From Deltaproteobacteria bacterium (GTDB lineage: Bacteria; Desulfobacterota; B13-G15; RBG-16-54-18), in the NCBI GenBank assembly GCA_003646745.1, contig QMLM01000001.1, positions 1 to 30,486 on the forward strand: a stretch of DNA of 30,486 nucleotides. The letters run 5' to 3'. How positions within the stretch are numbered: position 1 is the first letter of the stretch; each line of letters begins with the position of its first letter. Of this stretch, positions 2,563-19,694 are shown piece after piece. The notes beneath the pieces were generated by a model, which was given only the letters and a program-made list of their open reading frames with translations, made no database searches and was not told where the DNA came from. The position numbers and the translations under genes are program-made.

Positions 2563-2903
2563 CCTTGGCCATATATACCCAAGCGGTATAGTCTGCCTAC
2601 GACCTCAAAGGTCGGCAAAGAGCTACACAAAATAGGGACACCTTCCTCCTCGGCCCGCTGCAGGGTATCGGCATCGGGCTGCCTGCCATTGGCTAAGATT
2701 ATTCCCGCTAGGTCCCGCAGGGTAGCAATCGCCACGATGTTAGGATGACCCTGAATAGTCACCCAGATGTCCCCCTCCCTGCTGTTGGCCATGACGTCGC
2801 TAAGCAGATCGCTGGCATATCCTCCTCTCACCTCCCTATCTAACCCTCCTTGGGCCGCCTTTACGGTCAACTTGAGCTCTTCGACAATCCTTGTAAGTTT
2901 CAT
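2559..2903 (-). CDS. DRTGG-domain protein (HPr-kinase N-terminal-like fold)
   Basis: GGYASDLLSDVM..GDIWVT..LAGIILANGRQPD pattern. Start ATG 2903 overlaps the upstream stop (ATGA). The longer 2987 start lies inside the upstream gene. Confidence 0.8.
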   Translation of the reverse strand: MKLTRIVEELKLTVKAAQGGLDREVRGGYASDLLSDVMANSREGDIWVTIQGHPNIVAIATLRDLAGIILANGRQPDADTLQRAEEEGVPILCSSLPTFEVVGRLYRLGIYGQG

Positions 2904-4246: not shown

Positions 4247-4689
4247 CCAAACTCCCTTATCGATGAAGGTTTAATTAACATATCCACCACAGTCCCCTCC
4301 CCAACAGTGGAGGCGATATTTAATTTATCTACGTTCTTCTTTATGTTAGGCAACCCCATTCCCGCCCCAAAGCCCATCTCCCTGATCTCTGGGGAGGCGG
4401 TTGAATACCCTTCTTGCATCGCCAGCTCTATATCCTGTATCCCTGGTCCCTTGTCCTTAACGACAATCCTCAACTCCTCGGGGCTAATGGTTAAGTGCAA
4501 AACCCCCCTCTCCGCATGACATACCACGTTCATCTCTGCCTCATAAGAAGCAATGGCTACCCTTCTGACGAAATCGGGATCAAAACCTAATTCTTTCAAA
4601 ATCTCCTTGACCTTGCTCGATACCTTCCCCGCATTCCTGAAGTCCTTTCCATTTATCTCATAGTCCCACTCCAGCACCTTTTCTTCCAT
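4243..4689 (-). CDS. RsbT/RsbW-like anti-sigma-type Ser/Thr protein kinase (HATPase_c_2)
   Basis: YEAEMNV, DKGPGI..AMQEGYST, GAGMGLPNIKK and GEGT motifs. Confidence 0.85.
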   Translation of the reverse strand: MEEKVLEWDYEINGKDFRNAGKVSSKVKEILKELGFDPDFVRRVAIASYEAEMNVVCHAERGVLHLTISPEELRIVVKDKGPGIQDIELAMQEGYSTASPEIREMGFGAGMGLPNIKKNVDKLNIASTVGEGTVVDMLIKPSSIREFG

Positions 4690-5159: not shown

Positions 5160-6626
5160 TTACAGTAAGAACTGAACAGAACGTTGGGCCAAGGCCAAAA
5201 AGGTGGAGGGTAATATCCCAATTTGCAACACACCCCATACAGATATAATTACAGCCAAGACAGCAGATGGTGAAAAGGCACCCACCGCCAGCTCCCTCTC
5301 CGGCTCCCGGAAATACATGTAGATCAGCACCCTGAGGTAGTAATAGGCGGCCACTGCACTATTCAAGACCCCTATGACGGCAAGCCAGTAGTACCTGGCC
5401 TTCACTGCCGCGCTGAACACATAGAACTTGGCCATAAAACCGGCCATGGGGGGCACCCCTGCCAACGAAAGCATAAAGATGGACATGGAGGCCGCCAGTA
5501 GGGGGTGCTTAAATCCGACTCCTGCATAATCCGCTAGCTGGGTATTCTCTTCCCCCTTTTTCCCCAAAAGGATTACCACTGTAAAGGCCCCTATGTTCAT
5601 AAAGACATAGGCCAACAGATAAAACAGAATACTTGATTTGCCCAGCTCGTTTCCGGCCACAAAGGCCACCATGATATAACCGGCATGGGCAATACTGGAA
5701 TAGGCCAGCATCCTCTTTATGTTTGTTTGGGAAAGGGCAATGATGTTGCCCACCGTCATGGTGGCAACAGCTAGTATCCACATAATCTGCGTCCAATAGG
5801 CCTGAAGATTGGGTAAGGCATAGAAAAAGACCCTTACAAAGGCGGCAAATCCTGCAGCCTTGACCCCTGTGGCCATAAAGGCGGTAATGGAGGTTGGTGC
5901 CCCCTCATATACGTCGGGGGTCCACATATGAAAGGGCACCAGGGCTATCTTAAAACCAAACCCAATGATAAGCAGCGCAAGCCCGATGATCACTATGGGG
6001 AGGCTGCTAATCCAAGCCTGCCTTGTGAGGACCTCGCCGATCCCAGCCAGGTCAAGGGTTCCTGTGGAGGCATAGGTAAGAGCGATACCGTAGAGGAGAA
6101 ATGCCGAGGCAAAGGCCCCCAGCAAAAAATATTTAAAAGCTGCCTCCACCGATCTGGTGTCATCGCGCATGATGCCGGCCAACACATAGATGGAGATAGA
6201 CATCACCTCCAACCCCAAGAAGATGATCAGAAGATTAACCCCCGAGGCCATCAACATCATCCCCACGGTGGCAAATAACACAAGAACGTAATACTCCCCT
6301 AGATCTATCCCTTCCCTCTTGGTGTATCCCAGGGAGGCCAAAATGGTCAAAAAGGCAACGATCAAAAACATGACCTTGAAGAAGAGACAGAATGGATCCA
6401 TCGTCACCATGCCGTTGAATGCCTTAATTTCCTTGCCAATTCCTAAAAACAGTGAGAAAAAGGCTATCACTACACCCACCAGGGCGGTATAACCGAGTGG
6501 GCCTCTGCTTTGTCTGCGAACAAACACACTTAGGATCAAGACAAATAGGGCGAAGATGGTCAATACTAACTCAGGGGCGATAACCTTCAGATCTGCCGCT
6601 GAAAACTGGATTTTGAAGATCTCCAT
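5160..6626 (-). CDS. nuoN: NADH-quinone oxidoreductase subunit N
   Basis: GLEVMS, EAAFKYFLLGAFASAFLLYG, GFKIALVPFHMWTPDVYEGAP, KRMLAYSSIAH and FMAKF motifs. Confidence 0.95.
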   Translation of the reverse strand: MEIFKIQFSAADLKVIAPELVLTIFALFVLILSVFVRRQSRGPLGYTALVGVVIAFFSLFLGIGKEIKAFNGMVTMDPFCLFFKVMFLIVAFLTILASLGYTKREGIDLGEYYVLVLFATVGMMLMASGVNLLIIFLGLEVMSISIYVLAGIMRDDTRSVEAAFKYFLLGAFASAFLLYGIALTYASTGTLDLAGIGEVLTRQAWISSLPIVIIGLALLIIGFGFKIALVPFHMWTPDVYEGAPTSITAFMATGVKAAGFAAFVRVFFYALPNLQAYWTQIMWILAVATMTVGNIIALSQTNIKRMLAYSSIAHAGYIMVAFVAGNELGKSSILFYLLAYVFMNIGAFTVVILLGKKGEENTQLADYAGVGFKHPLLAASMSIFMLSLAGVPPMAGFMAKFYVFSAAVKARYYWLAVIGVLNSAVAAYYYLRVLIYMYFREPERELAVGAFSPSAVLAVIISVWGVLQIGILPSTFLALAQRSVQFLL

Positions 6627-6633
6627 CTCCTTC

Positions 6634-8214
6634 TTACTCCTTTATCAACAATTTAACCTTCGACCCCTTCACTCCTTTGACCAAAAATCCGCCTCCCTCC
6701 GGGGCCGTCACCGCAGCCTCATACCTAGCTTTGACGTCATAGAGGAAGTGTTGTACCGAGAGGTCCATCTTCTTAAAGAAGAACTTCGGGAAGATTCCCA
6801 TCCAGAAGATCATGATGATGATGGGTACCAAGGTCACAATCTCCCGGAAGTTGAGATCCTTGAGTCCTCGATTTTCCGGGTGTTTGATATCCCCAAACAT
6901 CACCCGTTGAAACATCCAAAGCATATAGGCCGCCGCCAAAATCACCCCTGTGGCCCCGAAGACCCCGTATACCGGGTTGGCCTTAAAGGTCCCCAAAAGG
7001 ATCAGAAATTCCCCCACAAAGCCGTTGGTCCCAGGCAGGGCGATGGAGGACAGCGCCACGATCATGAAGAAAGTAGCAAATATCGGCATCACCCGCGAGA
7101 GCCCGCCGAAATCGGCGATCAGCCTGGTATGTCTCCTCTCATAGATCATCCCCACGATCAAAAACAGTGCCCCCGTGCTCACCCCATGGTTGAGCATCTG
7201 ATAGATGCTCCCCTGTACCCCTTGCACGTTAAAGGCGAACATCCCCAGCATGACAAAGCCGAGGTGACTTACACTGGAAAAGGCCACCAATTTCTTAAGG
7301 TCATCTTGCATCATGGAGACCAGGGCTCCGTAGATGATCCCGATAAGTGCCAAGACCGATATCACAGGGATGGCCTTGAAGGCAGCGGCGGGGAATAAGG
7401 GAATAGCAAAACGTATGAAACCGTAAGTCCCCAGCTTCAGCAGAATTCCAGCCAGGATTACGGAGCCGGCGGTGGGGGCTTCCACATGGGCATCGGGCAA
7501 CCATGTGTGGAAGGGGAACATAGGTACCTTGATGGCAAAGGCTAGGGCAAAGGCAGCAAACATTATGTATTGCGTCTTTATGGGGAGGCTCACCTGATAG
7601 AGCTTAAGAAGGTCAAAAGTATAAACACCGGTGGCCTTCCCGTGGAGGAAGTAAAGGGCGATGATGGCCACCAACATCAACACACTCCCCGCCATAGTAT
7701 AAAGGAAGAACTTTATGGCGGCATAAATCCTCCTCGGTCCTCCCCAGACCCCGATGATGAGGTACATGGGGATCAACATGACCTCCCAGAATATATAGAA
7801 GAGAATGAGATCCAGGGCGACAAAGGCCCCGATCATACCGGTCTCCAGAAAGAGGAAGGATATCATGTATTCCTTTACACTCTTCTCGACCGCCCTCCAG
7901 GAGCTAAGGATACACAGCACGGTTAGGAAAGTGGTCAATAGAATCAACAGTAGGCTTATCCCATCAACCCCCATGTAATAGGTGACCCCCCATTCCTTAA
8001 TCCATGGGACTTTTTCCACAAACTGCATCCCGGCCTTACCCTCATCAAAATAAATAAAGAGGGGAAGAGAGATGACAAACTCGACCAGCGAGATGATGAG
8101 GGTCACCCACTTGAGGAGTTCTTCCCTCTCCCTGGGGACAAACAATAGCAGTATCGCCCCTGCAAGGGGCAGGAAGGTAATTGTTGTCAAAATGGGAAAA
8201 CCCAATTGGTTCAT
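6634..8214 (-). CDS. nuoM: NADH-quinone oxidoreductase subunit M
   Basis: [41 protein letters not shown] and GFVGEF motifs. Confidence 0.95.
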
Positions 8215-8224
8215 GGAAGACCTC

Positions 8225-10195
8225 TCACTTTATCAAGAATATGATGACCACCACTGCGCCCAACAGTATCCCTAGTGCATAACCCTGCACGTAGCCAGTC
8301 TGGATCTTGCGCAGGACCCTCCCCCACCAGAGCATGAGTCCCGCTACCAAATTTACACTTCGATCCACCACCCCATCGTCGAACTCCCGCCAGAAGAAGG
8401 TTCCTATCTTCTTGGCGCTGCTGACGAAACATGCCTCATATATCTCATCGACATAATATTTATTGAAGACGATAGTATAAAGGGTCCTAAATCTTTGGGC
8501 CAGCCTCTTCGGGACATCAGGCTTCAGAATGTAGAGGTATAGAGCAATGCTGATCCCGATCAGGGCGATGACCACAGAGACCACCATCAGGATGATCTCC
8601 CAGTTAACACTTCCTATCTCCTCCACTGCACCGGCGGCATAGGCAGACTTAATTAGGGATAAGGAGGCATGCCCAGCTCCCTCTGGAAGCCCTCCCAATA
8701 CAGGAGCGAGAAACTCATGAAAGTAATTCCTCCCTCCTAGGACATGGGGTATACCCACATAGCCGCCGATCACCGAAAGGACAGCCAAGATGATCAGCGG
8801 TACGGTCATAATAGGTGGGGACTCATGGATGTGTTTTTTTACCTCTTCCGAGGCCCGACATTGGCCCAAAAAGGTAACGAAGGTGAGCCGAAACATATAG
8901 AAGGCGGTCATCCCTGCCGCAACAGCCCCCACCAACCAGAGAAAGAGATGGCCATGAGGGCTGCTGAAGGCCTGCCAGAGAATCTCATCCTTGCTGAAAA
9001 ACCCCGAAAACCCGGGGATCCCCGCAATGGCCAAAGTGGCCATCAAGAAGGTCCAAAAGGTAATGGGGGTCTTCTTCCACAATCCCCCCATCTTTCTCAT
9101 ATCCAATTCCCCGCTGAGGGCGTGCATCACACTGCCCGCCCCCAAAAACAGAAGGCCCTTGAAGAAGGCATGGGTCATGAGGTGAAAAATCCCCGCGCTG
9201 AAGGCCCCTACCCCCACGGCAAGAAACATATACCCCAGCTGACTAATGGTAGAATATGCAAGAACCCGCTTTATGTCGAATTGCAAAATGCCCATAGAGG
9301 CGGCATAGATGGCCGTGGCAGCGCCGAAAATGGCTACCACCGCCATAGAGACCGGAGCCATGCTGTAAATGACGTGACAGCGAGCGATCATATACACTCC
9401 CGAGGTGACCATGGTGGCAGCATGGATTAAGGAGCTAACGGGGGTGGGACCCTCCATGGCATCGGGTAGCCATACATAGAGAGGGATCTGGGCGGACTTG
9501 CCGGTGGCCCCTACGAAGAGCAACAAGGTGATCATGGTCACAGTCACTGGATCGAGGAGATGGGCCTTGGCGAATACCTCGTTGAACTCCAAGGTGCCAA
9601 GGTGGGCAAAGATCAAAAACATCCCCAGCAAGAAGCCGAAGTCCCCTACCCTGTTGACTACAAAGGCCTTCTTGCCCGCATTGGCGGGGGCATCCCTCTC
9701 AAACCAAAAGCCGATCAACAAATAAGAACAAAGCCCTACCCCCTCCCAACCGACAAACATCAACAGGAAGTTGTTGGCCAAAACAAGGGTGAGCATCATG
9801 AAGACAAAGAGGTTGAGATAGGCAAAATACCTGGTAAATCCTGGATCATCGTGCATATAGCCCACAGAGTAGATATGGATGAAAAAGCTCACCCCGCTGA
9901 CCACCATGGCCATAACGATTGATAGAGGATCGATCTTGTAGCCAATTACCGTTTTGAGCCCTCCGGAGACTATCCAATCGAACAGGACTTTATCGGGTAC
10001 GGCGGCTCGGGCATCAGGGGGGAGTTTCAGCAGGCTGAAAAAGACCAAGATGGAGAAGAAGAAAGAAAGCCCCAGTACTGAACACGCCACCCAACTGACC
10101 ACCCTCTTGTCGAGGTTATACCACCTCCCAATCAGACCGTTGAAGAGAAATCCCACGGCAGGCAATAGAGGTATCAACCAAACATATTCGATCAT
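8225..10195 (-). CDS. nuoL: NADH-quinone oxidoreductase subunit L
   Basis: [49 protein letters not shown] and FSKDEIL motifs; long C-terminal region. Confidence 0.95.
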
Positions 10196-10214
10196 AGGGC
10201 GCTCCTTGCTGCCT

Positions 10215-10526
10215 TCACCATTTTAATAGATTTATCTCATCCACCTTTATAGTCCCCCGCCCCCGGTAAAGGAGGACGAAGATGGCTAAGCCCACCGCCG
10301 CCTCAGCCGCCGCCACTGTCATCACAAAAAAGACCATCAAGACCCCATCTAGGGAATCTAAATAGTGGGAGGCGGTGATCAGACTGAGGTTGACGGCACT
10401 GAGCATCATCTCAATACACATAAAGATGACGATGGCATCTCTTCTGATCAGAACTCCTACCGCCCCAATAGCAAAGATTAGGGCACTCACAATCAGGTAA
10501 CAGACTGGTGGCACATTAGGAAGCAT
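10215..10526 (-). CDS. nuoK: NADH-quinone oxidoreductase subunit K
   Basis: [11 protein letters not shown] and [12 protein letters not shown] motifs. Confidence 0.95.
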
Positions 10527-10531
10527 CTTAC

Positions 10532-11056
10532 CTACCTCTCCTTTTTGCTTAGGATCACTGCTCCAATGATCCCCACCAACAACAGGATGGAGGCCACCTC
10601 AAAGGGGAAGAGGAAGCGGGTAAATAACAGACTCGCCACCGCCTTGATATCGCCCATCTGGGCAATCTTTTCCGGTGTGAACTCCCCCTTTACCCCCGGC
10701 AATACCCTCAGGGCAATCCCATAGACAAGCTCAGCAAAAAGAATTAAGGCCACTACTAGCCCTATTACCTTAGCAGGGGAAAGACGGACCTTATAAGTCC
10801 TCCTCTCCTCCTCCACACTCAACAACATGATGACGAAGATGACCAACATCATGATGGCCCCAGCATAAATCATCACCTGGATGATGGCGATGAACTGGGA
10901 GTTAAGAAGCAAATAGAGGACAGCAATACAAAGAAAATTAAGCACCAAAAACAAAGCCGAGTGGATCGGATTGCGGCGAGTAATTACCATCACCGCAGCA
11001 AATATAGCAGTAAGAGCGGTCAAAATAAAGACGATCCAATGAAAGAGGCTCCCCAT
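10532..11056 (-). CDS. nuoJ: NADH-quinone oxidoreductase subunit J
   Basis: [21 protein letters not shown] and [17 protein letters not shown] motifs. Confidence 0.95.
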
Positions 11057-11062
11057 GATTAT

Positions 11063-11476
11063 CTACCCCTCCTTCGGTGCGTTGGCCAAAAGCCTCTCTT
11101 TGTCTAAGACGAAGTCTTCTCGACGGTAATCCACAAACTCATAGTTTTTGCCCAATTTGATGGCATTTACCGGACAGGCCTCGGCGCAGAACCCGCAGAA
11201 AATACACCTCGTGACATTTATCTCATAGGTCTCGGGGTACCTTTCCCCTGACTCCAACTCTACGGCTACCAGATGGATGCAATTAGAGGGACACACTGCC
11301 ACACAGAGTCCACATGCCACACAACGGGTATCACCTTTTTCATTTCGCTCGAAAAAATGTACTCCCCTCCACCTAGGGGCCACCTCCCGCTTCTGCTCAG
11401 GATACTGGATGGTCACCGGGCGGGAGAAGAACCTCTTTAGGGTAAGCCTCAATCCTCTCAACAGTGGGACGATCAT
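11063..11476 (-). CDS. nuoI: NADH-quinone oxidoreductase subunit I
   Basis: TIQYPE, CVACGLCVAVCP and CIFCGFCAEACP (2x[4Fe-4S]); position after nuoH. Confidence 0.95.
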   Translation of the reverse strand: MIVPLLRGLRLTLKRFFSRPVTIQYPEQKREVAPRWRGVHFFERNEKGDTRCVACGLCVAVCPSNCIHLVAVELESGERYPETYEINVTRCIFCGFCAEACPVNAIKLGKNYEFVDYRREDFVLDKERLLANAPKEG

Positions 11477-11491
11477 CGTATTACACTCCCT

Positions 11492-12487
11492 TTAAAGGAC
11501 CATGATCAAGCCGGTAAAAAATATATTGGCCAAGGTTAAAGGCAAAAGGACCTTCCAACCGAGCTTCATGATCTGGTCATACCTCAACCTAGGGAAAGTC
11601 CCCCTTTCCCAGATACAGAAGTATACAAGTACACCGGTCTTTATCACGAACCAGATCCAGGAAAGTGAAGGGGGTAAGAAAGGACCATGCCATCCCCCAA
11701 GAAATAGCGTAGTGGCAATAGCACATACCGCCACCAAATGGGCGTATTCCGCCATGAAGAAGAGGGAGAACTTCATGCTGCTGTACTCGATGTTAAAACC
11801 ACAGGCCAGCTCTGCCTCCGCCTCAGGCATATCAAAGGGAGTCCGGTTGATCTCAGCAATGGCGCAGACCAGATAAAAGATAAAGGCGAAGGGTTGATAG
11901 AGGACATTCCAATGCCCTCCAGCCTGCCTTTGAACGATCTCCCCTAAATTGAGGGTCCCCGAGATCATCAACACCCCGATCACCGAAAGGCCCAAGGCCA
12001 ACTCATAACTTATCATCTGGGCTGCCGCTCTCAGGGCCCCGATCACCCCATATTTGTTATAACCCGACCAGCCACCAAGCACAACGCCATACTCCCCTAA
12101 GGAAGCAATACCGAAGACATAAAGTAGACCGATATCTAGGTCGGCTATGGTAAGGGAGACAGTCCTGCCAAAGATCTCAATCTTATCCCCAAAGGGGATC
12201 ACGGCAAAGAGGCACAGCGCCGCCACAATACTGATCATGGGGGCGATGATAAAAATGGTTTTATCCGCCTTAGCCGGAACCACTTCTTCTTTAAAGAAGG
12301 CCTTGATCCCATCGGCGATGGGCTGAAGGAGACCAAAAGGCCCCACCCTATTGGGCCCATATCTTACCTGGATATGACCCAACACCTTTCTCTCCACAAG
12401 GGTAAGATAGGCCACCGTACCCATTAGGACGGCAAAGACCACCACCACCTTCACCACGGCCTCAATCAGAAAATAGACTAGCTCCAT
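11492..12487 (-). CDS. nuoH: NADH-quinone oxidoreductase subunit H
   Basis: ERKVLGHIQVRYGPNRVGPFGLLQPIADGIK, AAQMISYE, NRTPFDMPEAEAEL and FPRLRYDQ motifs. Confidence 0.95.
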   Translation of the reverse strand: MELVYFLIEAVVKVVVVFAVLMGTVAYLTLVERKVLGHIQVRYGPNRVGPFGLLQPIADGIKAFFKEEVVPAKADKTIFIIAPMISIVAALCLFAVIPFGDKIEIFGRTVSLTIADLDIGLLYVFGIASLGEYGVVLGGWSGYNKYGVIGALRAAAQMISYELALGLSVIGVLMISGTLNLGEIVQRQAGGHWNVLYQPFAFIFYLVCAIAEINRTPFDMPEAEAELACGFNIEYSSMKFSLFFMAEYAHLVAVCAIATTLFLGGWHGPFLPPSLSWIWFVIKTGVLVYFCIWERGTFPRLRYDQIMKLGWKVLLPLTLANIFFTGLIMVL

Positions 12488-12497
12488 CCTCTACCCC

Positions 12498-15062
12498 TCA
12501 AACCTTCTCTAACCTGGCGGGAATCCTCCCGTAAGCTGGTACTAAAGAAACAGCATCCAATTGCGGACCCACTAGTTGGGAGGCATCCACTTCATAAAAG
12601 GGGAGATAAAGGGAAAGAACACCCTTCCTCATCCCCTCGGATCTCCTTATCTCTACCTGCACCTCACCCCAGGGGGTGGTAACCTTCACCTTGTCTCCAT
12701 CCCCAATACCCATCTCCTCGGCCTGCTCGGCGCTCATCTCTAAATAAGGATAGGAGAAGACCTTTGCCAACCCCTGAGCCCTCCTCTGGGGGCCAGAGCC
12801 TGTGAGGTGATTATAAAATATGCCCTCTACGGAAAGTAAAAAGGGATAGCCCTCCTCTTGCCCCTCCTGGGTGGGTCCTACAGGGCTAAAGACCGCCTTT
12901 TCCAAAAGATTATCCCTACCCCCACCCCGCAATTGGGTATCTGAGGCCTCAAATTCCAGCCCTCCATAGAGGGGATTGACACCTCTGATCTCCTCAAAGG
13001 TCCCTGCTGGAGACTCAGCCTTCATCTCCTTGCCCATGAAGGCCGCCAGATCCGATAAAACCTCACCTTCCCACCTCAGACCATCTGGGGGCTCCAAGGC
13101 CTTGCGCAACCTCTGAACCCTTCCCTCACAATTGGTATATGTACCGTCCAACTCAGCAAAGGATAGGGCCGGTAGGACCACATGGGCCTGCTCGGCCGTC
13201 TCTGAAAAGAACATATCCTGAACTACCAACAGCTCCAGGGCCTTTAGCCCCTCTTCTACGAGAGACCTGGGAAGGGTAATCAGGGGGTTTTCCCCCAAGA
13301 TAAACAAGGCCTTTAATTCCCCCTTGGAAGCTGCCTGAAACATCTCCACTGCCGAAAGCCCCCTTCCATTTCCTGGACGATACCCCGAAAGGAGCAGGGG
13401 AGTTGCCCCCATCTCCACGGCACCTACCATATTGGCCTGAGGTCCGACAAAGTGAAAACCCCCTCCACCGGTAAGGGCCCCGGCAAGAAGCGCCAAGTTG
13501 ACCAACCCCTTCACCTGATCTACCCCGTATGGCTGCTGCCCGAAAGGAGGAGAACAGATAAAGGCGGGCCTTTTCGCCTTGGCAAGGTGCTGTGCCGCCT
13601 CTGTAAGCAGCTCCTGAGAGACGCCAATTAGCTCCTCTACATGCTCAGGCGTAAACTTCTTGGCGGCCTCCTTGAGGGCATCCAAGCCTTCTACTGCCTC
13701 CACCCCCACTGCCCAGGCCTCTGGACCTTTCTCCAATAGGAGGTGGATCAATCCATTTGCCCAGACCAACTCGTCCCCGGGTCGTAGGCAGAACCAACAA
13801 TCTGCCTCTTCGGCCAATCTGACCCGTCTGGGGTGAACCAGTATGAGGTGCGCCCCTTTTCTCCAGAGGGCCTCCCTGACCCGATTGGCGGCGATGAGAT
13901 TATCCCTGTCCAAATCCCCTCCCACTACCACTATACAGTCGGCATCGGCAACATCATCCAAAGTGCTTGGCAGATAATCCCTGCCCAAAACCTCTTTTAT
14001 GGCCAGCCGGTACGGTTCCAGACATAGCCTACCAGTAGTATCTACATTATTGGTCCCCACCACCTCCCTCATGAATTTCTGAAAGAGGTAGACTTCCTCA
14101 TTAGTGCAGCGCGGGGATATCAACCCCCCAACTGTCCCAGGGCCGCTGCTCAAGATGACTTTGTTGATCATCGCTGCAACATAAGAGAGGGCCTCCTCCC
14201 ACGGTACCTCCTTCCAGTTCCCCGCCCCCTTAATCATGGGCCTGGTAATCCTTTCCGTACCATGGAGGAAGTCATATCCAAATCTCCCCCTTACACAGAG
14301 GCTCCCCCTGTTAGCCCCCTTATCGTCCTGGCTCGTCACCCCTATTACCCGGTTCTCGAAGATATTCAGCTCGAGCTGGCAGCCCAGGGAACAGTAGTTG
14401 CAAGTGGTGAGAACCTTTTGTTGTTGCCAGGGGCGTGCCTTGATCCTGCTGACCCTCTCGGTCAAAGCCCCTACAGGGCAGACCCTGAGACATTCCCCAC
14501 AGGAGATACAGGCCGCAGGGTCCCTTATCCCCACCTCCGCCTCATATCCCTTTCCCACCAGCTCTATAGCCCACGCTCTAGCGATCTCGTGGTCGGCCCT
14601 GATGCAACGCAAACACATAACGCAACGGTCCGCCCACTGCCTGATCAGGGGAGTGGCAAACTCCCTCATTCCCTTAGAGGACCTGGTGGCCTGATACTCC
14701 TGCTGATCTATACCGAACTCGAACACCAAATTTTGCAGTTCACATGCACCAGCCGCATCACATTGAGGACAGTCTAAAGGGTGATTAAGCAAAATGAGTT
14801 TGAGGGCATCACGGCGAATGCGCTCCAGCCTCTCCGTCTGGGTGCGAACCACTATTCCATCCTGCACATAGGTAGTACAAGCGGTCATGGGCCTCTCCGC
14901 ACCTTCTATCTCCACCACACAGAGGCGACAAGAACCGATGGGGATCAACCGAGGATGATAGCAGAGGGTAGGTATATAGATCCCGTTCTCCCGCGCCACC
15001 TCCAGGATGGTTTTGTCTGACTCAGCCGTGATCTGCTTGCCATCTATGGTCAATCTAACCAT
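12498..15062 (-). CDS. NuoG/formate-dehydrogenase-alpha-like Fe-S protein resembling Geobacter SfrA (NADPH oxidoreductase alpha subunit)
   Basis: [2Fe-2S] (PTLC..GSCRLC..C), HPLDCPQCDAAGAC, CVMCLRCIRADHEI/CISCGECLRVCP and CNYCSLGC..C motifs, then a degenerate molybdopterin-oxidoreductase body. Start moved to ATG 15062 (GGAGGAG upstream). SfrA similarity is from recall, not a search. Confidence 0.75.
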   Translation of the reverse strand: MVRLTIDGKQITAESDKTILEVARENGIYIPTLCYHPRLIPIGSCRLCVVEIEGAERPMTACTTYVQDGIVVRTQTERLERIRRDALKLILLNHPLDCPQCDAAGACELQNLVFEFGIDQQEYQATRSSKGMREFATPLIRQWADRCVMCLRCIRADHEIARAWAIELVGKGYEAEVGIRDPAACISCGECLRVCPVGALTERVSRIKARPWQQQKVLTTCNYCSLGCQLELNIFENRVIGVTSQDDKGANRGSLCVRGRFGYDFLHGTERITRPMIKGAGNWKEVPWEEALSYVAAMINKVILSSGPGTVGGLISPRCTNEEVYLFQKFMREVVGTNNVDTTGRLCLEPYRLAIKEVLGRDYLPSTLDDVADADCIVVVGGDLDRDNLIAANRVREALWRKGAHLILVHPRRVRLAEEADCWFCLRPGDELVWANGLIHLLLEKGPEAWAVGVEAVEGLDALKEAAKKFTPEHVEELIGVSQELLTEAAQHLAKAKRPAFICSPPFGQQPYGVDQVKGLVNLALLAGALTGGGGFHFVGPQANMVGAVEMGATPLLLSGYRPGNGRGLSAVEMFQAASKGELKALFILGENPLITLPRSLVEEGLKALELLVVQDMFFSETAEQAHVVLPALSFAELDGTYTNCEGRVQRLRKALEPPDGLRWEGEVLSDLAAFMGKEMKAESPAGTFEEIRGVNPLYGGLEFEASDTQLRGGGRDNLLEKAVFSPVGPTQEGQEEGYPFLLSVEGIFYNHLTGSGPQRRAQGLAKVFSYPYLEMSAEQAEEMGIGDGDKVKVTTPWGEVQVEIRRSEGMRKGVLSLYLPFYEVDASQLVGPQLDAVSLVPAYGRIPARLEKV

Positions 15063-15078
15063 CGCTCCTCCCATCTTA

Positions 15079-17034
15079 CTACCCTATGGCCACCATACCG
15101 ACGCGATAACAACGCAGGCAGCGAGCAGCTTCCCGCATGGCCGTATCGACGGGAAAACCTTCCTCCACCTCCTCAAAGCTCCACTTCCTGGTGTCTGCAG
15201 GGAGGGCCTTGAGCTGTTCCCTCTTCCTGCCCGGGATGATCCCAATATGCTCCTCAGGGTCGTAGACCCCTATCTCACCCATCAACTTCTCCAGCCGCTC
15301 GTCATCGCTAGCCTCTACTTTCTCACCCCTTAGGTAAAGGTCTATCATCTCTGCAGCCAATCGACCACTACCCGCCGCCCTTACCAGGACATCAGGGCCG
15401 GTGACGCAATCTCCTGCGGAAAAGATCTCGGGTTGTGAGGTCTCCATAGTCTCATTATTTACCACCACGGTAGACCATTTGGTGGCCTGCACTCCATCCT
15501 TTTCATCCAAAAAGGATAAATCAACACGTTGGCCAATGGCCGGGATTAATATATCCGTGTCAACGACAAACTCTGAGCCCTTGATGGGAACCGGTCTACG
15601 CCTGCCCGATTCGTCCGGCTCCCCCAGTTCCATCCTAATACACTCTACCCCCACTACCTTTCCCTCCTTAGCGATAATCTTAGTGGGAGCACAGAGATAC
15701 TCAAACTTCACCCCTTCTTCTTCAGCAGCATGTATCTCCTCTTCATCGGCGGGCATCTCTCGACGGGTACGACGATAAAAGAGGTTAACGTCCTTCTTCC
15801 CTATCCGGAAGGAGCTGCGCACACAATCTATGGCAACATTACCCCCCCCTACTACCACTACCCTATCCCCATCTGGATAGGGATCTTTCCCCTTATTTAT
15901 GCTAAAAAGGTATTGTACCCCGGGAATAAAACCCTTATATCCTGCATCTTCCCCCTCCACACGCATAGGGGTGGATCCTTGGGCCCCCACCCCAATAAAG
16001 ATGGCGTCGTACTCCTTTTTCATATCGCTGATGCTTATGTCTTTTCCTACTTCGGTATTATATCTGATTTCTACCCCCAAGGAGGTGATGATATCCACCT
16101 CCCGGCGCAGGATGTGACGGGGCAGTCGGTAGTCGGGGATACCTACCGCGGCCATCCCTCCTGGTTCATCCAGCCTTTCAAAGATGGTGATCGGATAACC
16201 CTTAAGGGCTAAGTAATAGGCACAAGTAAGACCGGCTGGGCCTGCTCCAATGACCGCCACCTTTTTGTCCTTTCTGTCCTGAGGGGTGGGGATAAGGGGC
16301 TTTCTCTTTTTCTCTATCTCATAATCGGCCACAAACCTCTTTAGGTGCCTGATGTCGAGGGCCTCATCTACATTGAGCCTGCGGCAGTTGGACTCACAGG
16401 GACGAATGCATACCCTCCCTAAGGTACCTGGCAGACAGGTTCTCTCCCTGATAACCCGAAGGGAGTCGGCGAAATCTCCCTCTGCTATACACTCAATATA
16501 AGTGGGGATGTTCAAATGAGCAGGGCAGGCATTCATACAGGGGGCGGTGAGTTTAACCTTATAATTTCCTCGCGGAACCTTCTTCTTGCCCCTGATCACC
16601 TCCTCAAACTCCTCGCGAAAATACTTCAAGGCCATCAGGAGGGGGAAGGGACCAGTCTGGCCTAGATTGCACTTGGAACCCTCTAAAATGGAGTGCCCCA
16701 AAGACTCCATCAACTCCAGATCCTCCATTCTCCCCTCACCCTGCGTGATCCTGTCCAAGGTCTCGGCGATCACCTTGGTGCCAACCCTGCAGGGGAAACA
16801 TTTCCCGCAGGACTCCTTCTGTACCGCCTCCATATATGCCCGGCACATATCGACAATGCTGACATCTGTGTCGCGCACGGCAAAACCGTTCCAACCCATG
16901 AAGGCCTTTATTCGAACGCCCGGTTTGAATTCAGCGGGCAATTTTAGCCTCTCCGGCTCGGCATATTCCTGCGGGGCCTTCCCCCTGTTATCGGTCAGTT
17001 TTCCTCCCCAATAGCTAAAAACTACATCTGCCAT
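15079..17034 (-). CDS. GltD-like FAD/NAD(P)H oxidoreductase with N-terminal NuoF-type [4Fe-4S] domain, resembling Geobacter SfrB
   Basis: ESCGKCFPCRVG..C (NuoF N3-like), APCMNACP/GRVCIRPCESNCRR (GltD Fe-S), GAGPAG (FAD), GGGNVAIDC with YRRTRREMPA (NADPH-type basic motif), C-terminal EAARCLRC. N-terminus VVFSYWG..DNR..AFMGW resembles SfrB as recalled. Start at ATG 17034. Confidence 0.8.
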   Translation of the reverse strand: MADVVFSYWGGKLTDNRGKAPQEYAEPERLKLPAEFKPGVRIKAFMGWNGFAVRDTDVSIVDMCRAYMEAVQKESCGKCFPCRVGTKVIAETLDRITQGEGRMEDLELMESLGHSILEGSKCNLGQTGPFPLLMALKYFREEFEEVIRGKKKVPRGNYKVKLTAPCMNACPAHLNIPTYIECIAEGDFADSLRVIRERTCLPGTLGRVCIRPCESNCRRLNVDEALDIRHLKRFVADYEIEKKRKPLIPTPQDRKDKKVAVIGAGPAGLTCAYYLALKGYPITIFERLDEPGGMAAVGIPDYRLPRHILRREVDIITSLGVEIRYNTEVGKDISISDMKKEYDAIFIGVGAQGSTPMRVEGEDAGYKGFIPGVQYLFSINKGKDPYPDGDRVVVVGGGNVAIDCVRSSFRIGKKDVNLFYRRTRREMPADEEEIHAAEEEGVKFEYLCAPTKIIAKEGKVVGVECIRMELGEPDESGRRRPVPIKGSEFVVDTDILIPAIGQRVDLSFLDEKDGVQATKWSTVVVNNETMETSQPEIFSAGDCVTGPDVLVRAAGSGRLAAEMIDLYLRGEKVEASDDERLEKLMGEIGVYDPEEHIGIIPGRKREQLKALPADTRKWSFEEVEEGFPVDTAMREAARCLRCYRVGMVAIG

Positions 17035-17127
17035 CGTCACCTCAAATCTATATAACGTATTAAAGTCGCATACAATTCAAACGAAGATTAAATCGCTCTA
17101 CCCTTCGCCACATAATAAAAGGGCTGG

Positions 17128-18819
17128 TCATCGGTCTATCTCCCCCAGGACGATATCAATACTCCCGATGACGGCCACCACATCGGCCACCAGATGCCCT
17201 TTAATCATCTCCGGCAAGGCCGCTAAGTTCACAAAACAAGGGGGTCGAATGCGGTACCGATAAGGGTGATTGCTTCCATCGCTTACCAGATACCAGCCTA
17301 ATTCTCCCTTAGGATTTTCGATACTGGCGTAAACCTCTCCTGGAGGTGGCGATATATCCTCGGACTTGAGCTTGAAGTGACGGATCAGGGCATTGATCTC
17401 CTCCGCTACCAGTTCTTTACTGGGAGGCGTCACCTTGGGGTCATAGTAGTTGACCTCCCCATCAGGGAGCCTGTCTAGGGCCTGATGGATGATTCTGGCA
17501 GACTGCCTCATCTCCTCCAGCCGCACGAGATACCTGTCGTAGACATCTCCCTTCTCGCCGATGGGGATCTCAAAATCAAACTCCTCATAACTAGAATAAG
17601 GAAAGACCTTGCGAATGTCCCACCTGACCCCTGACCCCCTCAGCACTGGACCTGTAAGCCCCCAGTTGATGGCCTCATCCGCCGTGATGACCCCCACATC
17701 TTTGGTCCTCTTCAACCAGATGATGTTCTCAGTAAGCAGCGTCTCATATTCGTGAATGCGTCGGGGAAAATCCTCTAGGAAGGCCCTGATCCTCCCCTCA
17801 ATGCCATCGGGCAAGTCAGCGGCCAGTCCCCCTATGCGCAAAAAGCTGGGGGTGAGCCTGGCACCGGTGACGTGTTCCAGGATGTCAAGGACTGTCTCCC
17901 TTTCCCGGAAGGTGTAAAAGAGCACGGTCATGGCCCCCATGTCCAGGGCATGGGTGGCTAGCCAAAGCAGGTGCGCTGCGATCCTTTGCAGTTCGGCCAG
18001 CATCACCCTAATGTACTGGGCCCTCTTGGGCACCTCTATTCCGAGGAGTTTCTCCACGGCCAGAATATAGGCCAAGTTATTAGATATCCCGGCGGTATAG
18101 TCTAAACGGTCGGTGAGGGTAACAGCTTGTGTATAGGTCATGTTCTCAGCCAATTTCTCCACGCCTCTATGGAGGTGGCCGATGTAGGGGATGGCATCAA
18201 CGATTACCTCCCCATCTAGCTTCAACACCAAACGCAACACCCCATGGGTGGCCGGGTGCTGGGGCCCCATATTTAAGATCATATACCTTTGCCCCTCACC
18301 CGTATCTGGGAACTTCGGTATGACATCGGGGGGCTCTGCCGGCACCTCGTAATGCTCGAAGTCCTCCCCCCGCAACGGAAAGTCCTTCCTCAGGGGATGG
18401 CCCTGGTAACCCTCCCAAGTCAAGATACGGCGCAAATCACTGTGTCCCTCAAAGGGGACCCCTAACATATCGTAAACCTCCCGCTCTAACCAATTGGCCG
18501 CCTTCCAGATCGACTCCACCGTAGAGAGCGCCTCGCCCTCACTTACCGAGGCCTTGATCCTCAACCTCTTATTCCGCCTCATGGAATAGAGGTGGTACAC
18601 TACCTCGAACCTCTCCTCCCTCTGGGGATAATCGACGCCACATATATCGGTGAGGAAATCAAAGGCGAGATCGGGGTCATCACGGAGGAACTTACAGATG
18701 GGGAGGATATCTTCTCGCTTTACCTTAATGGTCATTTCACCCTGAAAGGAGTAGGTCTCCAAGATGGAGTCGGGGAATTGCTCCTTCAGCCTCTTATGGG
18801 CGACCTCCACATCCCACAT
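17128..18819 (-). CDS. nuoCD: Fused NADH-quinone oxidoreductase subunit C/D
   Basis: NuoC part (EREVYDMLG..GHPLRKDFP) fused to NuoD part (NMGPQHPATHGVLRL, DRLDY, SIDIVLGEIDR). No NiFe CxxC motifs. Confidence 0.95.
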   Translation of the reverse strand: MWDVEVAHKRLKEQFPDSILETYSFQGEMTIKVKREDILPICKFLRDDPDLAFDFLTDICGVDYPQREERFEVVYHLYSMRRNKRLRIKASVSEGEALSTVESIWKAANWLEREVYDMLGVPFEGHSDLRRILTWEGYQGHPLRKDFPLRGEDFEHYEVPAEPPDVIPKFPDTGEGQRYMILNMGPQHPATHGVLRLVLKLDGEVIVDAIPYIGHLHRGVEKLAENMTYTQAVTLTDRLDYTAGISNNLAYILAVEKLLGIEVPKRAQYIRVMLAELQRIAAHLLWLATHALDMGAMTVLFYTFRERETVLDILEHVTGARLTPSFLRIGGLAADLPDGIEGRIRAFLEDFPRRIHEYETLLTENIIWLKRTKDVGVITADEAINWGLTGPVLRGSGVRWDIRKVFPYSSYEEFDFEIPIGEKGDVYDRYLVRLEEMRQSARIIHQALDRLPDGEVNYYDPKVTPPSKELVAEEINALIRHFKLKSEDISPPPGEVYASIENPKGELGWYLVSDGSNHPYRYRIRPPCFVNLAALPEMIKGHLVADVVAVIGSIDIVLGEIDR

Positions 18820-18831
18820 ATAATCCCTCTC

Positions 18832-19347
18832 TTATCGAATCTCTTCTGGTTGGAGGGGACGAATCTCATCCTTCCTGTCCAGAAGGCTCTCACCCATGAT
18901 CTTATTCTGCAATTTTATCAAGGCCGTCAAGAGGGCCTCAGGTCTGGGGGGGCAACCTGGCACATAGACATCCACTGGGATGATCTGATCCACCCCTTGC
19001 ACCACATTATAGGTTTGAAATATTCCACCTGAAGAGGCGCAGGCCCCATAAGCGATCACCCATTTAGGCTCAGGCATCTGCTCGTAAATCCTCTTAACCA
19101 TGGGGGCCATCTTTTTGGTAACCGTGCCCGCCACGATCATAAGGTCTGCCTGTCTGGGGGAGGGGCGAAATACCTCAGCGCCAAATCTAGCAATGTCATA
19201 GGCCGCCGAACTGGTGACCATCATCTCCAGGGCGCATCAAGCCAGCCCAAAGGTCACCGGCCAAAGGGAGTTCTTTCGCGCCCAATTGACCAATTTGCTG
19301 AGAGAGGTCGTGATGATGTTATCCCCTAACTTGACCTCTATTCCCAT
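18832..19347 (-). CDS. nuoB: NADH-quinone oxidoreductase subunit B with in-frame TGA at codon 37 (19237-19239); candidate selenoprotein, 171 aa
   Basis: Manual extension upstream of the 130-aa track ORF gives [46 protein letters not shown]..., followed by [16 protein letters not shown] and PGCPPRPEA. The start ATG 19347 overlaps the end of nuoA. Confidence 0.9.
19204..19239 (-). promoter_or_regulatory. Putative bacterial SECIS hairpin directly after the nuoB UGA
   Basis: mRNA UGA-UG-CGCC-CUGG-AGA-UGA-[UGG]-UCA-CCAG-UUC-GGCG folds by hand into CGCC/GGCG, CUGG/CCAG and UGA/UCA stems, with a G-containing apical loop 16 nt after the UGA. Not computed. Confidence 0.6.
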
Positions 19348-19694
19348 TCCAGCGCTCCTTTCCTCCATACATATATAAAACCCAATAATAGAATAAAAAT
19401 GAAAATCATCATCTCCACAAAGCCAAATATCCCTAACTCCCTAAAGACCACCGCCCAAGGGTACAAAAAGACCACCTCTAGGTCAAAGACCAAAAAGAGC
19501 ATGGCGATGATGTAATACTTTATCGGAATGGCCTGATGGGTGGGGCCTAAAGAGATCATCCCACACTCATAGGGAGCAGCTTTTACCGGATGGACCCTCT
19601 TAGGCCCCAACAGATGGGAGAGGAAGACGACAAAGACGGCAAAAAATATAGACAAGGCCAATAAAAACAGAACAGGCACATACTTAATGAGCAT
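19338..19694 (-). CDS. nuoA: NADH-quinone oxidoreductase subunit A
   Basis: [28 protein letters not shown] and WRKGALEWE motifs. Confidence 0.95.

What the first reader, a model, noticed from the sequence alone, without database searches (positions are those of the whole stretch)
18832..19347. Candidate selenocysteine-containing NuoB: UGA at a ligand of Fe-S cluster N2, with a SECIS-like hairpin
Seen: nuoB reads without frameshift from ATG 19347, with one in-frame TGA (19237-19239) in FGLA-TGA-C-ALEMM. The other ligand positions are intact (C38, C103, C132; spacings of 65 and 29). The bases just after the UGA fold by hand into a three-stem hairpin with a UGG loop 16 nt downstream. All other core nuo genes look intact. 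Established: NuoB binds N2, the electron donor to quinone, through tandem cysteines (E. coli C63/C64, C129, C158, the same spacings). Bacterial SECIS elements lie immediately 3' of the UGA and have a G near the start of the apical loop. Inference: the organism places Se in the N2 ligand sphere, which could shift the N2 potential or its coupling. I do not know of a characterised Sec-NuoB, but prior mention in computational selenoprotein surveys should be checked. Automatic annotation would call this gene truncated or a pseudogene.
Basis: partly seen in the sequence, partly recalled or inferred. Interest (0 to 1): 0.92.

Follow-up and report, generated by a model that had tools for sequence, protein, structure and literature searches.

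The report
Selenocysteine codon in complex I NuoB
The apparent stop codon inside this bacterium's nuoB gene is almost certainly a conserved selenocysteine codon, which would put selenium in place of sulfur at one of the four ligands of the iron-sulfur cluster (N2) that passes electrons to quinone in respiratory complex I; I found no selenoprotein catalogue or paper that lists this.

Summary
The in-frame TGA (19239-19237, minus strand, codon 37 of nuoB) is real. It aligns with the first of the tandem cysteines that bind cluster N2 (T. thermophilus Nqo6 Cys45, E. coli NuoB Cys63, Y. lipolytica NUKM Cys85).

It is not a private nonsense mutation:
- The same codon is TGA in 26 distinct nuoB sequences from seven families of Thermodesulfobacteriota, and in two nuoB copies of one genome from a second phylum. 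Close relatives have TGC or TGT there.
- Codons on both sides are under purifying selection.
- The genome has selA, selB, tRNA-Sec and a UGA-containing selD, plus three more UGA genes of known selenoprotein families. TGA is otherwise an ordinary stop.

The conserved element is an overlapping hairpin (19219-19201). Its apical-loop G and U sit at a fixed distance from the UGA in every Sec-type sequence, and the stems show compensatory changes.

The most complete catalogue I could read (2026, 119 families) lacks NuoB.

This scan noted the same feature earlier on other DNA.

Selenium in the protein and on N2 is inferred, not shown.

The parts
18832..19347 (-). nuoB coding sequence, 171 codons plus TAA stop, read with UGA37 as selenocysteine
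   Evidence: Translation. NCBIfam NuoB models score over their cut-offs. About 65% identity to solved Nqo6. It is the only nuoB found in the 86.6%-complete genome.
19237..19239 (-). UGA codon 37, the proposed Sec codon, at the first of the tandem N2 ligands
   Evidence: It aligns with Nqo6 Cys45, E. coli Cys63 and NUKM Cys85. The same codon is TGA in 26 unique related sequences and TGC/TGT in 115 others.
19234..19236 (-). TGC, Cys38, the second tandem N2 ligand
19039..19041 (-). Cys103 codon, third N2 ligand (Nqo6 Cys111)
   Evidence: Position counted from the translation; ungapped alignment.
18952..18954 (-). Cys132 codon, fourth N2 ligand (Nqo6 Cys140)
   Evidence: Position counted from the translation; ungapped alignment.
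19201..19219 (-). Proposed SECIS upper stem-loop (hairpin B): 7-position stem with one A.C mismatch and apical loop AGUUC (19212-19208). The invariant G is at 19211 and the invariant U at 19210, which are nt 29 and 30 counted from the U of UGA.
   Evidence: Present in 26 of 26 Sec-type sequences at -5.4 kcal/mol or better (mean -8.6), with different stem sequences. Covariation score 0.330 against 0.183 in shuffles, 0 of 500 as high. G29 and U30 are invariant. The same position and the same GU occur in the two Sec-type copies of a second phylum. The loop resembles the Prx and MvhD SECIS loops of the same genome.
19192..19225 (-). Possible extended SECIS: a 4-bp lower helix (19225-19222 with 19195-19192) under hairpin B
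   Evidence: The lower helix is 97% paired in 25 sequences, with GC, GU and AU at the outer pair. Most of it is also fixed by conserved amino acids, so the support is weaker.
19204..19234 (-). It is mutually exclusive with hairpin B.
   Evidence: It is the minimum-energy fold, but z = 0.09 against shuffles, covariation is 0.198 against 0.169, and it is broken in family f12 and in the second phylum.
19338..19694 (-). nuoA; its stop overlaps the start of nuoB
   Evidence: sequence.
17128..18819 (-). nuoCD fusion. NuoD forms the N2 and quinone pocket together with NuoB.
   Evidence: TIGR01962 scores 581 bits over its cut-off.
15079..17040 (-). 653-aa fusion protein in the place of nuoE/nuoF: NuoF-type N3 4Fe-4S domain + Fer4_20 + GltD-like FAD/NAD(P) domain
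   Evidence: The same gene follows nuoCD in 20 related loci, Sec-type and Cys-type alike.
5160..15074 (-). nuoG-like (12498-15074), nuoH, nuoI, nuoJ, nuoK, nuoL, nuoM, then a 488-aa antiporter-like ORF (5160-6626) that is nuoN by position only: the rest of the operon
   Evidence: nuoG to nuoM match their NCBIfam families. The 488-aa ORF matches only the general Proton_antipo_M domain PF00361, which also covers NuoL, NuoM and Mrp subunits; its identity as nuoN is inferred from its place in the operon.

Best explanation
nuoB encodes a full-length 171-residue NuoB in which UGA37 is read as selenocysteine. While the ribosome translates nuoB, SelB carrying Sec-tRNA(Sec) binds an mRNA hairpin inside the coding sequence, most probably the stem-loop at 19219-19201. 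The apical-loop G and U of that hairpin lie 29 and 30 nt from the U of the UGA. SelB then delivers Sec to the UGA. The product assembles into a complex-I-type enzyme in which cluster N2, the [4Fe-4S] cluster that reduces quinone, is held by Sec37, Cys38, Cys103 and Cys132. Selenium therefore replaces sulfur at the first, strained and mobile, tandem ligand next to the quinone site.

Shown here: the conserved UGA at the ligand codon, Sec/Cys alternation among relatives, selection on both flanks, the Sec machinery, and the conserved hairpin.

Inferred: that the inserted residue is Sec, that it ligates N2, and any change this makes to the cluster's potential, protonation or stability.
For: (1) Position. 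Codon 37 aligns without gaps to Nqo6 Cys45, E. coli NuoB Cys63 and NUKM Cys85. PMC8042128 describes these as an unusual, strained tandem pair ligating N2, with the first Cys the most mobile and close to the quinone-ligating Tyr.

(2) Recurrence. TGA sits at exactly this codon in 26 of 141 unique nuoB sequences. These come from at least 24 of 401 sampled genomes in 7 families of the phylum. It also occurs in both nuoB copies of one genome among 151 sampled from a second phylum. All the others have TGC or TGT.

(3) Gene tree, built without the site and hairpin columns. The Sec state is clustered (0 of 500 shuffles as low). It needs at least 8 switches, of which at least 6 are forced by well-supported branches. 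The window's gene lies in a clade of 7 Sec-type sequences that are only 78-93% identical in DNA.

(4) Selection. pN/pS is 0.30 in the 25 codons upstream and 0.15 in the 114 codons downstream of the UGA. Cys-type genes give 0.33 and 0.25.

(5) Machinery. selA scores 640 bits and selB 394 bits. selD has its own UGA at the known Sec site. There is one tRNA-Sec with anticodon UCA. UGA-containing MvhD (two genes) and Prx genes are present.

(6) TGA ends 293 of 762 long open frames, so there is no global recoding.

(7) Hairpin B. It is present in all 26 Sec-type sequences, with invariant G29 and U30 and compensatory stem changes. It has the same geometry in the second phylum.

(8) This is the only nuoB detected in the genome.
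Against: - There is no direct evidence that selenium is in the protein or that full-length NuoB is made.
- The organism is an uncultured MAG, 86.6% complete.
- Which hairpin is the SECIS is not settled. RNAalifold finds no strong consensus. Hairpin B needs a register shift or a bulge in some clades, so only 73% of cells pair in a single register.
- Cys-type sisters often still carry the hairpin. A phylogenetically independent contrast of Sec state against hairpin stability has only 6 pairs and no power.
- selA is present in 92% of the phylum sample, so its co-occurrence with Sec-type nuoB (24 of 24) says little.
- The operon is a non-canonical complex I variant whose electron donor is unknown.
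Confidence: 0.88

Rival explanations
1. The UGA is read through without the Sec machinery, or facultatively. A near-cognate tRNA, or Cys-charged tRNA(Sec), inserts Cys or Trp, so the mature protein carries an ordinary ligand at least under selenium limitation. The UGA would then mainly act as a selenium- or growth-dependent throttle on complex I synthesis.
For: The neighbouring state in evolution is always Cys, and Sec and Cys interchange at least 6-8 times, so Cys clearly works at this site. Nothing here measures which residue is inserted.
Against: A hairpin with an invariant apical GU at a fixed distance is conserved in all 26 Sec-type sequences and in a second phylum. That is what SelB-dependent decoding needs and what simple read-through does not. 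All 24 Sec-type genomes in the phylum sample carry selA, and the three family-f1 genomes without detectable selA are all Cys-type. Keeping a leaky stop in an essential ligand codon over this much divergence would be costly.
Confidence: 0.06
2. The gene is broken: a nonsense mutation or base-call error makes nuoB a pseudogene, or it yields a 130-residue protein from the ATG at 19224.
For: Gene callers treat it this way. 90 of the best 120 database clusters matching the downstream ORF are 125-135 aa long.
Against: The same TGA is found in 26 independently assembled, diverged sequences and in a second phylum. The 25 codons upstream of the stop are under the same purifying selection as in Cys-type genes (pN/pS 0.30 against 0.33). 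There are no frameshifts. It is the only nuoB in the genome, and it sits in an otherwise intact operon. A product starting at Met42 would lack two of the four N2 ligands.
Confidence: 0.02
3. Sec is inserted but is not an N2 ligand in this enzyme. In this non-canonical, GltD-linked complex the first tandem position would act as a redox-active or substrate-facing selenol near the quinone pocket, with N2 bound by three Cys plus another ligand.
For: The first tandem Cys is described as the most mobile ligand, adjacent to the quinone-binding Tyr (PMC8042128). The operon's input module is unusual.
Against: The surrounding motif and the other three ligand positions are identical to those of canonical NuoB, at about 65% identity to Nqo6. 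Cys-type and Sec-type genes sit in the same operon type. There is no sign of an alternative ligand.
Confidence: 0.04

Closest known systems
Canonical Cys-type NuoB / Nqo6 / NDUFS7 (PSST, NUKM), Pfam PF01058, TIGR01957
   Same: Same family, length, fold-defining motifs and operon position. About 65% identical to T. thermophilus Nqo6. Three of the four N2 ligands are identical.
   Different: The first tandem cysteine (Nqo6 Cys45) is encoded by UGA followed by a conserved hairpin. All 41 distinct solved NuoB-family sequences matched by my search are Cys-type proteins as far as I know; their ligand residues were inspected only in the two printed alignments.
[NiFeSe] hydrogenases and other metal-ligating selenoproteins (FdhA, FrhA/VhuA, MvhD/VhuD, HdrA)
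   Same: Sec replaces a metal- or cluster-binding Cys in a redox enzyme of anaerobes, with Sec/Cys pairs among close relatives. The 2026 review notes that about 20% of selenoprotein families are predicted to bind ligands, mostly metals and Fe-S clusters. From established knowledge, NuoB and NuoD are homologues of the [NiFe]-hydrogenase small and large subunits.
   Different: In [NiFeSe] hydrogenases the Sec is in the large subunit and binds Ni. Here it is in the small-subunit homologue and would bind the cluster equivalent to the proximal [4Fe-4S]. No listed family is a complex I subunit of the Nuo type.
Catalogued selenoprotein 'NADH:ubiquinone oxidoreductase (subunit E)', COG2209 / PF02508, motif TxxU, one Sargasso Sea sequence
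   Same: Similar name; also linked to NADH:quinone oxidoreduction.
   Different: A different protein family. From my own knowledge, COG2209/PF02508 is the membrane subunit NqrE/Rnf of the Na+-pumping enzyme. It has a different motif (TxxU against U-C) and no Fe-S ligand role. The protein here is PF01058 and matches NuoB models only.
Bacterial SECIS elements (E. coli fdhF type; bSECISearch model)
   Same: A stem-loop inside the coding sequence just 3' of the UGA, with G (and U) in the apical loop. The loop distance is within the accepted range. The loop AGUUC resembles the AGUU and GUU loops of the Prx and MvhD SECIS elements in the same genome.
   Different: The apical GU lies at nt 29/30 from the U of UGA. 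From memory it is at nt 23/24 in fdhF, and the apical loop starts at about nt 24 in this genome's selD. There is an A.C mismatch instead of a bulged U in this clade. SelB binding has not been tested.

Membership tests
NuoB / Nqo6 / NDUFS7 (PF01058, TIGR01957) | Scores above the curated family cut-offs | tested here: met
   TIGR01957 scores 246.1 bits (cut-off 142.7) and NF005012 scores 254.3 bits (cut-off 116). PF01058 is precomputed for the downstream ORF.
NuoB / Nqo6 / NDUFS7 (PF01058, TIGR01957) | Four N2 ligand positions: a tandem pair plus two single Cys at the canonical spacing | tested here: met
   U37-C38, C103 and C132 align without gaps to Nqo6 C45, C46, C111 and C140. The first position is Sec-coded instead of Cys.
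NuoB / Nqo6 / NDUFS7 (PF01058, TIGR01957) | Encoded between nuoA and nuoC/D in a nuo-type operon with membrane subunits H and J to N | tested here: met
   nuoA, nuoCD and nuoG to nuoM match their families; nuoN is assigned by position and a general domain match only. nuoE and nuoF are absent and replaced by a fusion protein.
Bacterial selenoprotein gene (SelB/SECIS-decoded UGA) | In-frame UGA aligned with Cys in homologues, recurring in independent lineages | tested here: met
   26 unique Sec-type against 115 Cys-type sequences at the same codon. At least 6-8 switches on the tree. A second phylum carries it too.
Bacterial selenoprotein gene (SelB/SECIS-decoded UGA) | The genome encodes selA, selB, selD and tRNA-Sec | tested here: met
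Bacterial selenoprotein gene (SelB/SECIS-decoded UGA) | Coding constraint on both sides of the UGA | tested here: met
   pN/pS is 0.30 upstream and 0.15 downstream.
Bacterial selenoprotein gene (SelB/SECIS-decoded UGA) | A stem-loop just 3' of the UGA with a conserved G in the apical loop, supported by covariation | tested here: met
   Hairpin B. Caveat: a competing fold exists and RNAalifold gives no consensus.
Bacterial selenoprotein gene (SelB/SECIS-decoded UGA) | Selenium is actually incorporated, and the hairpin binds SelB | not testable with these tools
   This needs 75Se labelling, mass spectrometry or a reporter assay.
Catalogued selenoprotein 'NADH:ubiquinone oxidoreductase' (COG2209 / PF02508, TxxU) | Membership of PF02508/COG2209 and a TxxU motif | tested here: not met
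   The protein is PF01058/NuoB with an A-U-C-A motif. The catalogue entry is COG2209 with TxxU.

The most novel reading that the evidence does not exclude
Selenium at the first tandem ligand of N2 is an adaptive, repeatedly gained or lost tuning of the terminal electron-transfer step of complex I. The selenolate's lower pKa, longer Fe-Se bond and greater polarisability would change the potential, the redox-linked protonation or the ligand on/off behaviour of N2. That would suit a low-potential, menaquinone-linked or reversible enzyme in anaerobes. The natural Sec/Cys pairs, often more than 90% identical, would then be ready-made isosteric probes of what the conserved tandem-cysteine motif does in energy coupling.
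Probability: 0.35. Interest if true: 0.9.

Novelty: new variant of a known kind. Interest (0 to 1): 0.8.

Why it matters
Cluster N2 is the last electron carrier of complex I, and its odd tandem-cysteine ligation is conserved from bacteria to humans. Its role in setting the cluster's high, pH-dependent potential and in coupling has been debated for decades. It has been probed only by destructive mutations.

A natural enzyme with selenium at that ligand, alongside near-identical cysteine versions in sister genomes, would give a one-atom substitution to compare by EPR (with 77Se as a spin label), electrochemistry and cryo-EM. It would also be a selenoprotein in the core respiratory chain that current catalogues do not list.

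It shows that many public NuoB entries are truncated gene calls, so complex I would be scored as defective in these genomes. It also ties respiration in a set of uncultured sediment and groundwater anaerobes to selenium supply.

Tried and rejected
It folds no better than shuffles, has little covariation and is broken in family f12 and in the second phylum. I kept it only as a competing fold.
- RNAalifold on 25 Sec-type sequences gave a trivial 3-pair consensus, because two folds compete and the 3' arm shifts register between clades.
- A raw Sec-against-Cys comparison of hairpin energy is significant (Mann-Whitney p about 7e-7) but is not phylogenetically independent. The independent-pairs test has 6 pairs and no power, so I do not use the p-value as evidence.
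- selA presence or absence as a discriminator. selA is in 369 of 401 genomes, so finding it in 24 of 24 Sec-type genomes is uninformative.
- Global TGA reassignment (codes 4 and 25) is rejected, because TGA ends 293 of 762 long frames.
- Other in-frame TGAs in the window: none lies in a plausible gene.
- FdhA-type Sec gene: no TIGR01553 match over the cut-off in the genome.
- Of 9 TGA-flagged matches in the second phylum, 7 were ordinary C-terminal stops. Likewise 2 of 18 in the home phylum.
- Eight literature searches found no paper that describes a Sec-NuoB. Subscription-only papers are not covered.

Full report
THE OBSERVATION

On the minus strand an ORF runs from ATG 19347 to TAA 18834-18832. 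It has one in-frame TGA at 19239-19237, which is codon 37. Read through, the 171-residue product is an unambiguous NuoB: TIGR01957 scores 246 bits against a cut-off of 142.7, and NF005012 scores 254 against 116.

Ungapped alignments to solved structures place codon 37 on Cys45 of T. thermophilus Nqo6, Cys63 of E. coli NuoB and Cys85 of Y. lipolytica NUKM. Cys38, Cys103 and Cys132 fall on the other three ligand positions. [quoted passage not shown] The first tandem Cys is described as the more mobile one and lies close to the quinone-ligating tyrosine of NDUFS2.

IS IT A REAL, MAINTAINED CODON?

A six-frame search of 61 related genomes found nuoB with one TGA inside the match in several of them. 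Translation shows the TGA at exactly the same codon, in the context FGLA-TGA-C-A, in nine of the 30 best loci. The rest have TGC or TGT.

A sample of 401 genomes of the phylum gave more such matches, and 16 of the 18 newly fetched ones have the TGA at this codon. The record titles of named relatives point to Thermodesulfobacteriota, the former Deltaproteobacteria. In all, 26 of 141 unique sequences are Sec-type. They come from at least 24 sampled genomes in seven families.

I built a gene tree without the codon and without the hairpin columns. On it the Sec state is clustered (0 of 500 label shuffles as low) and needs at least 8 changes, at least 6 of them forced by well-supported branches. 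The window's gene sits in a clade of seven Sec-type sequences (SH-aLRT 97) that are only 78-93% identical in DNA.

Among Sec-type genes, pN/pS is 0.30 for the 25 codons before the UGA and 0.15 for the 114 codons after it. Close Cys-type genes give 0.33 and 0.25. The stretch upstream of the 'stop' is therefore still protein-coding.

In a sample of 151 genomes from a second phylum, one genome has two nuoB copies with TGA at codon 37. That phylum is the one holding a genome titled Anaerolineae bacterium. The copies are about 60% identical to the query.

A private nonsense mutation or a base-call error cannot produce this pattern.

CAN THE ORGANISM DECODE IT?

The 1.78-Mb, 86.6%-complete genome has:
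- selA (640 bits);
- selB (394 bits);
- selD, which itself carries a UGA at the known Sec/Cys site (GAG-U-ASK);
- one tRNA-Sec with anticodon UCA.

Two MvhD homologues and a peroxiredoxin also carry single in-frame UGAs at the sites typical of those selenoprotein families. TGA ends 293 of 762 long open frames, so it is a normal stop elsewhere. No second nuoB was found, so complex I in this organism depends on reading this UGA.

THE HAIRPIN

However, the region folds no better than shuffled sequence (z = 0.09). Across 25 Sec-type sequences this fold is well paired (86%) but barely covaries (0.198 against 0.169 in shuffles). Most of it is fixed by the conserved residues LEMM.

A second, mutually exclusive stem-loop lies at 19219-19201. 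It occupies nt 21-39 counted from the U of UGA and has the loop AGUUC. The evidence for it is as follows.
- It is present in every one of the 26 Sec-type sequences at -5.4 kcal/mol or better, with a mean of -8.6.
- Its stem sequences differ between clades: GGUC..GGCC, CGUC..GACG, GGUUGCC..GGCAACC, GGCUACU..AGUAGC and UUGCUG..CAGCAA.
- Pairs 21-39, 24-36 and 27-33 show changes on both sides. The covariation score is 0.330 against 0.183 in shuffles, with 0 of 500 as high.
- G29 and U30 in the apical loop are invariant. Only 21 of 49 close Cys-type genes have GU there, and 25 of 26 Sec-type genes use AGT for that codon.
- A 4-bp lower helix (nt 15-18 with 45-48) may extend it.
- The two Sec-type copies in the second phylum have a different stem (GGCGGCCG..CGGC-CGCU).
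- The loops of the Prx (AGUU) and one MvhD (GUU) SECIS in the same genome look alike.

I therefore take 19219-19201 as the probable SECIS.

Caveats:
- RNAalifold gives no consensus.
- Some clades need a shifted register or a bulge.
- Cys-type sisters in the same family have a weaker hairpin in this sample (-0.4 to -5.4 kcal/mol), but a test on phylogenetically independent pairs has only six pairs and no power.

MECHANISM

Shown: a conserved UGA at an N2 ligand codon, the decoding machinery, and a conserved downstream hairpin.

Inferred from established knowledge of bacterial Sec insertion: SelB carrying Sec-tRNA(Sec) binds the hairpin as the ribosome approaches and inserts Sec at codon 37.

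Inferred from homology: Sec37 ligates N2 together with Cys38, Cys103 and Cys132.

What selenium does there is open. A selenolate is more acidic, softer and forms a longer bond than a thiolate. That could relieve the strain of the tandem ligation, or alter the potential, the protonation or the on/off behaviour of this mobile ligand. I did not test any of this.

CONTEXT

The operon reads nuoA, nuoB, nuoCD, a 653-aa fusion protein, a nuoG-like gene with an Fdh-alpha-like domain, nuoH to nuoM, and a final 488-aa antiporter-like ORF. That last ORF matches only the general Proton_antipo_M domain and is nuoN by position. The fusion protein combines the NuoF N3 4Fe-4S domain, Fer4_20 and a GltD-like flavoprotein domain. 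There is no nuoE and no true nuoF. The only other NuoF-like match in the genome is a partial one at a contig end. The same fusion gene follows nuoCD in 20 related loci of both Sec and Cys type. It therefore marks the clade, not the Sec state.

COMPARISON WITH WHAT IS KNOWN

The most complete catalogue I could read is Zhang et al., AEM 2026 (PMC13188914), with 119 families and subfamilies. It has no NuoB, PF01058 or complex I entry. Its 'NADH:ubiquinone oxidoreductase subunit E' entry is PF02508/COG2209 with a TxxU motif, from one Sargasso Sea sequence. That is a different protein.

Searches pairing selenocysteine or selenoprotein with NuoB, NDUFS7, cluster N2 and subunit B found nothing relevant. 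Subscription journals are not covered.

NCBIfam has no selenoprotein-type NuoB model among the hits.

Public gene calls truncate the gene. 90 of the best 120 database clusters matching the downstream ORF are 125-135 aa long, and JGI names them NuoB without comment.

EARLIER NOTES OF THIS SCAN

Earlier notes of this scan report the same feature on other DNA. Some add claims about more than 100 genomes, eukaryotic algae, and a variant at the fourth Cys. My own data reproduce the recurrence in bacteria and the absence from catalogues. I did not test the other claims.

VERDICT

This is a well-supported, apparently uncatalogued selenoprotein form of a core complex I subunit. Confidence is high for recoding and good but indirect for Se-N2 ligation. 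The functional consequence is unknown.

Noticed in passing
window 15079-17040 (-), with 12498-15074 (-): The nuo operon has no nuoE and no true nuoF. A 653-aa fusion protein lies between nuoCD and a nuoG-like gene that has an Fdh-alpha-like domain. The fusion combines the NuoF N3 4Fe-4S domain, Fer4_20 and a GltD/NfnB-like Pyr_redox_2 domain. The same arrangement occurs in 20 related loci, Sec-type and Cys-type alike. The electron donor of this complex is therefore probably not NADH via the usual FMN site.
   Followed up: partly
L024, L025, L026 (family f2) against L014-L016, L020 (family f1): The Sec-type nuoB genes of a second family nest inside the window's Sec clade (SH-aLRT 97), away from that family's own Cys-type copies. 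This suggests transfer of the Sec-type gene or operon between families. The f2 genomes also carry a second, more distant Cys-type nuoB.
   Followed up: partly
L183 and L184 (genome G550, second phylum): One 5.7-Mb genome of the phylum that holds an 'Anaerolineae bacterium' MAG has two nuoB copies. Both have TGA at codon 37 and a hairpin with GU at nt 29/30 after the UGA.
   Followed up: partly
genome G000: C168:1084-2004 (+), C16:7104-7472 (-), C4:7321-7692 (-), C71:6050-6448 (-): Four further genes have a single in-frame UGA at known selenoprotein sites: SelD, two MvhD/FlpD homologues and a peroxiredoxin. Each is followed by a hairpin.
   Followed up: partly
public protein database, hits P0002-P0121: 90 of the best 120 clusters matching the ORF downstream of the UGA are 125-135 aa long. 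Sec-type NuoB genes are therefore widely deposited as truncated 'NADH-quinone oxidoreductase subunit B'.
   Followed up: partly
window 2900-4246 (-) and 4243-4689 (-): Just downstream of the nuo operon lie a [FeFe]-hydrogenase-like protein (Fe_hyd_lg_C plus a C-terminal 'putative Fe-S cluster' domain and an N-terminal ferredoxin domain) and a small HATPase_c_2 (anti-sigma-kinase-like) protein. They may form a sensory hydrogenase module.
   Followed up: no
family f1 genomes G005, G008, G010: The three family members with no detectable selA all have Cys-type nuoB. This is consistent with Sec-to-Cys replacement accompanying loss of the Sec trait. The genomes are 85-93% complete, so absence of selA is not proven.
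   Followed up: no
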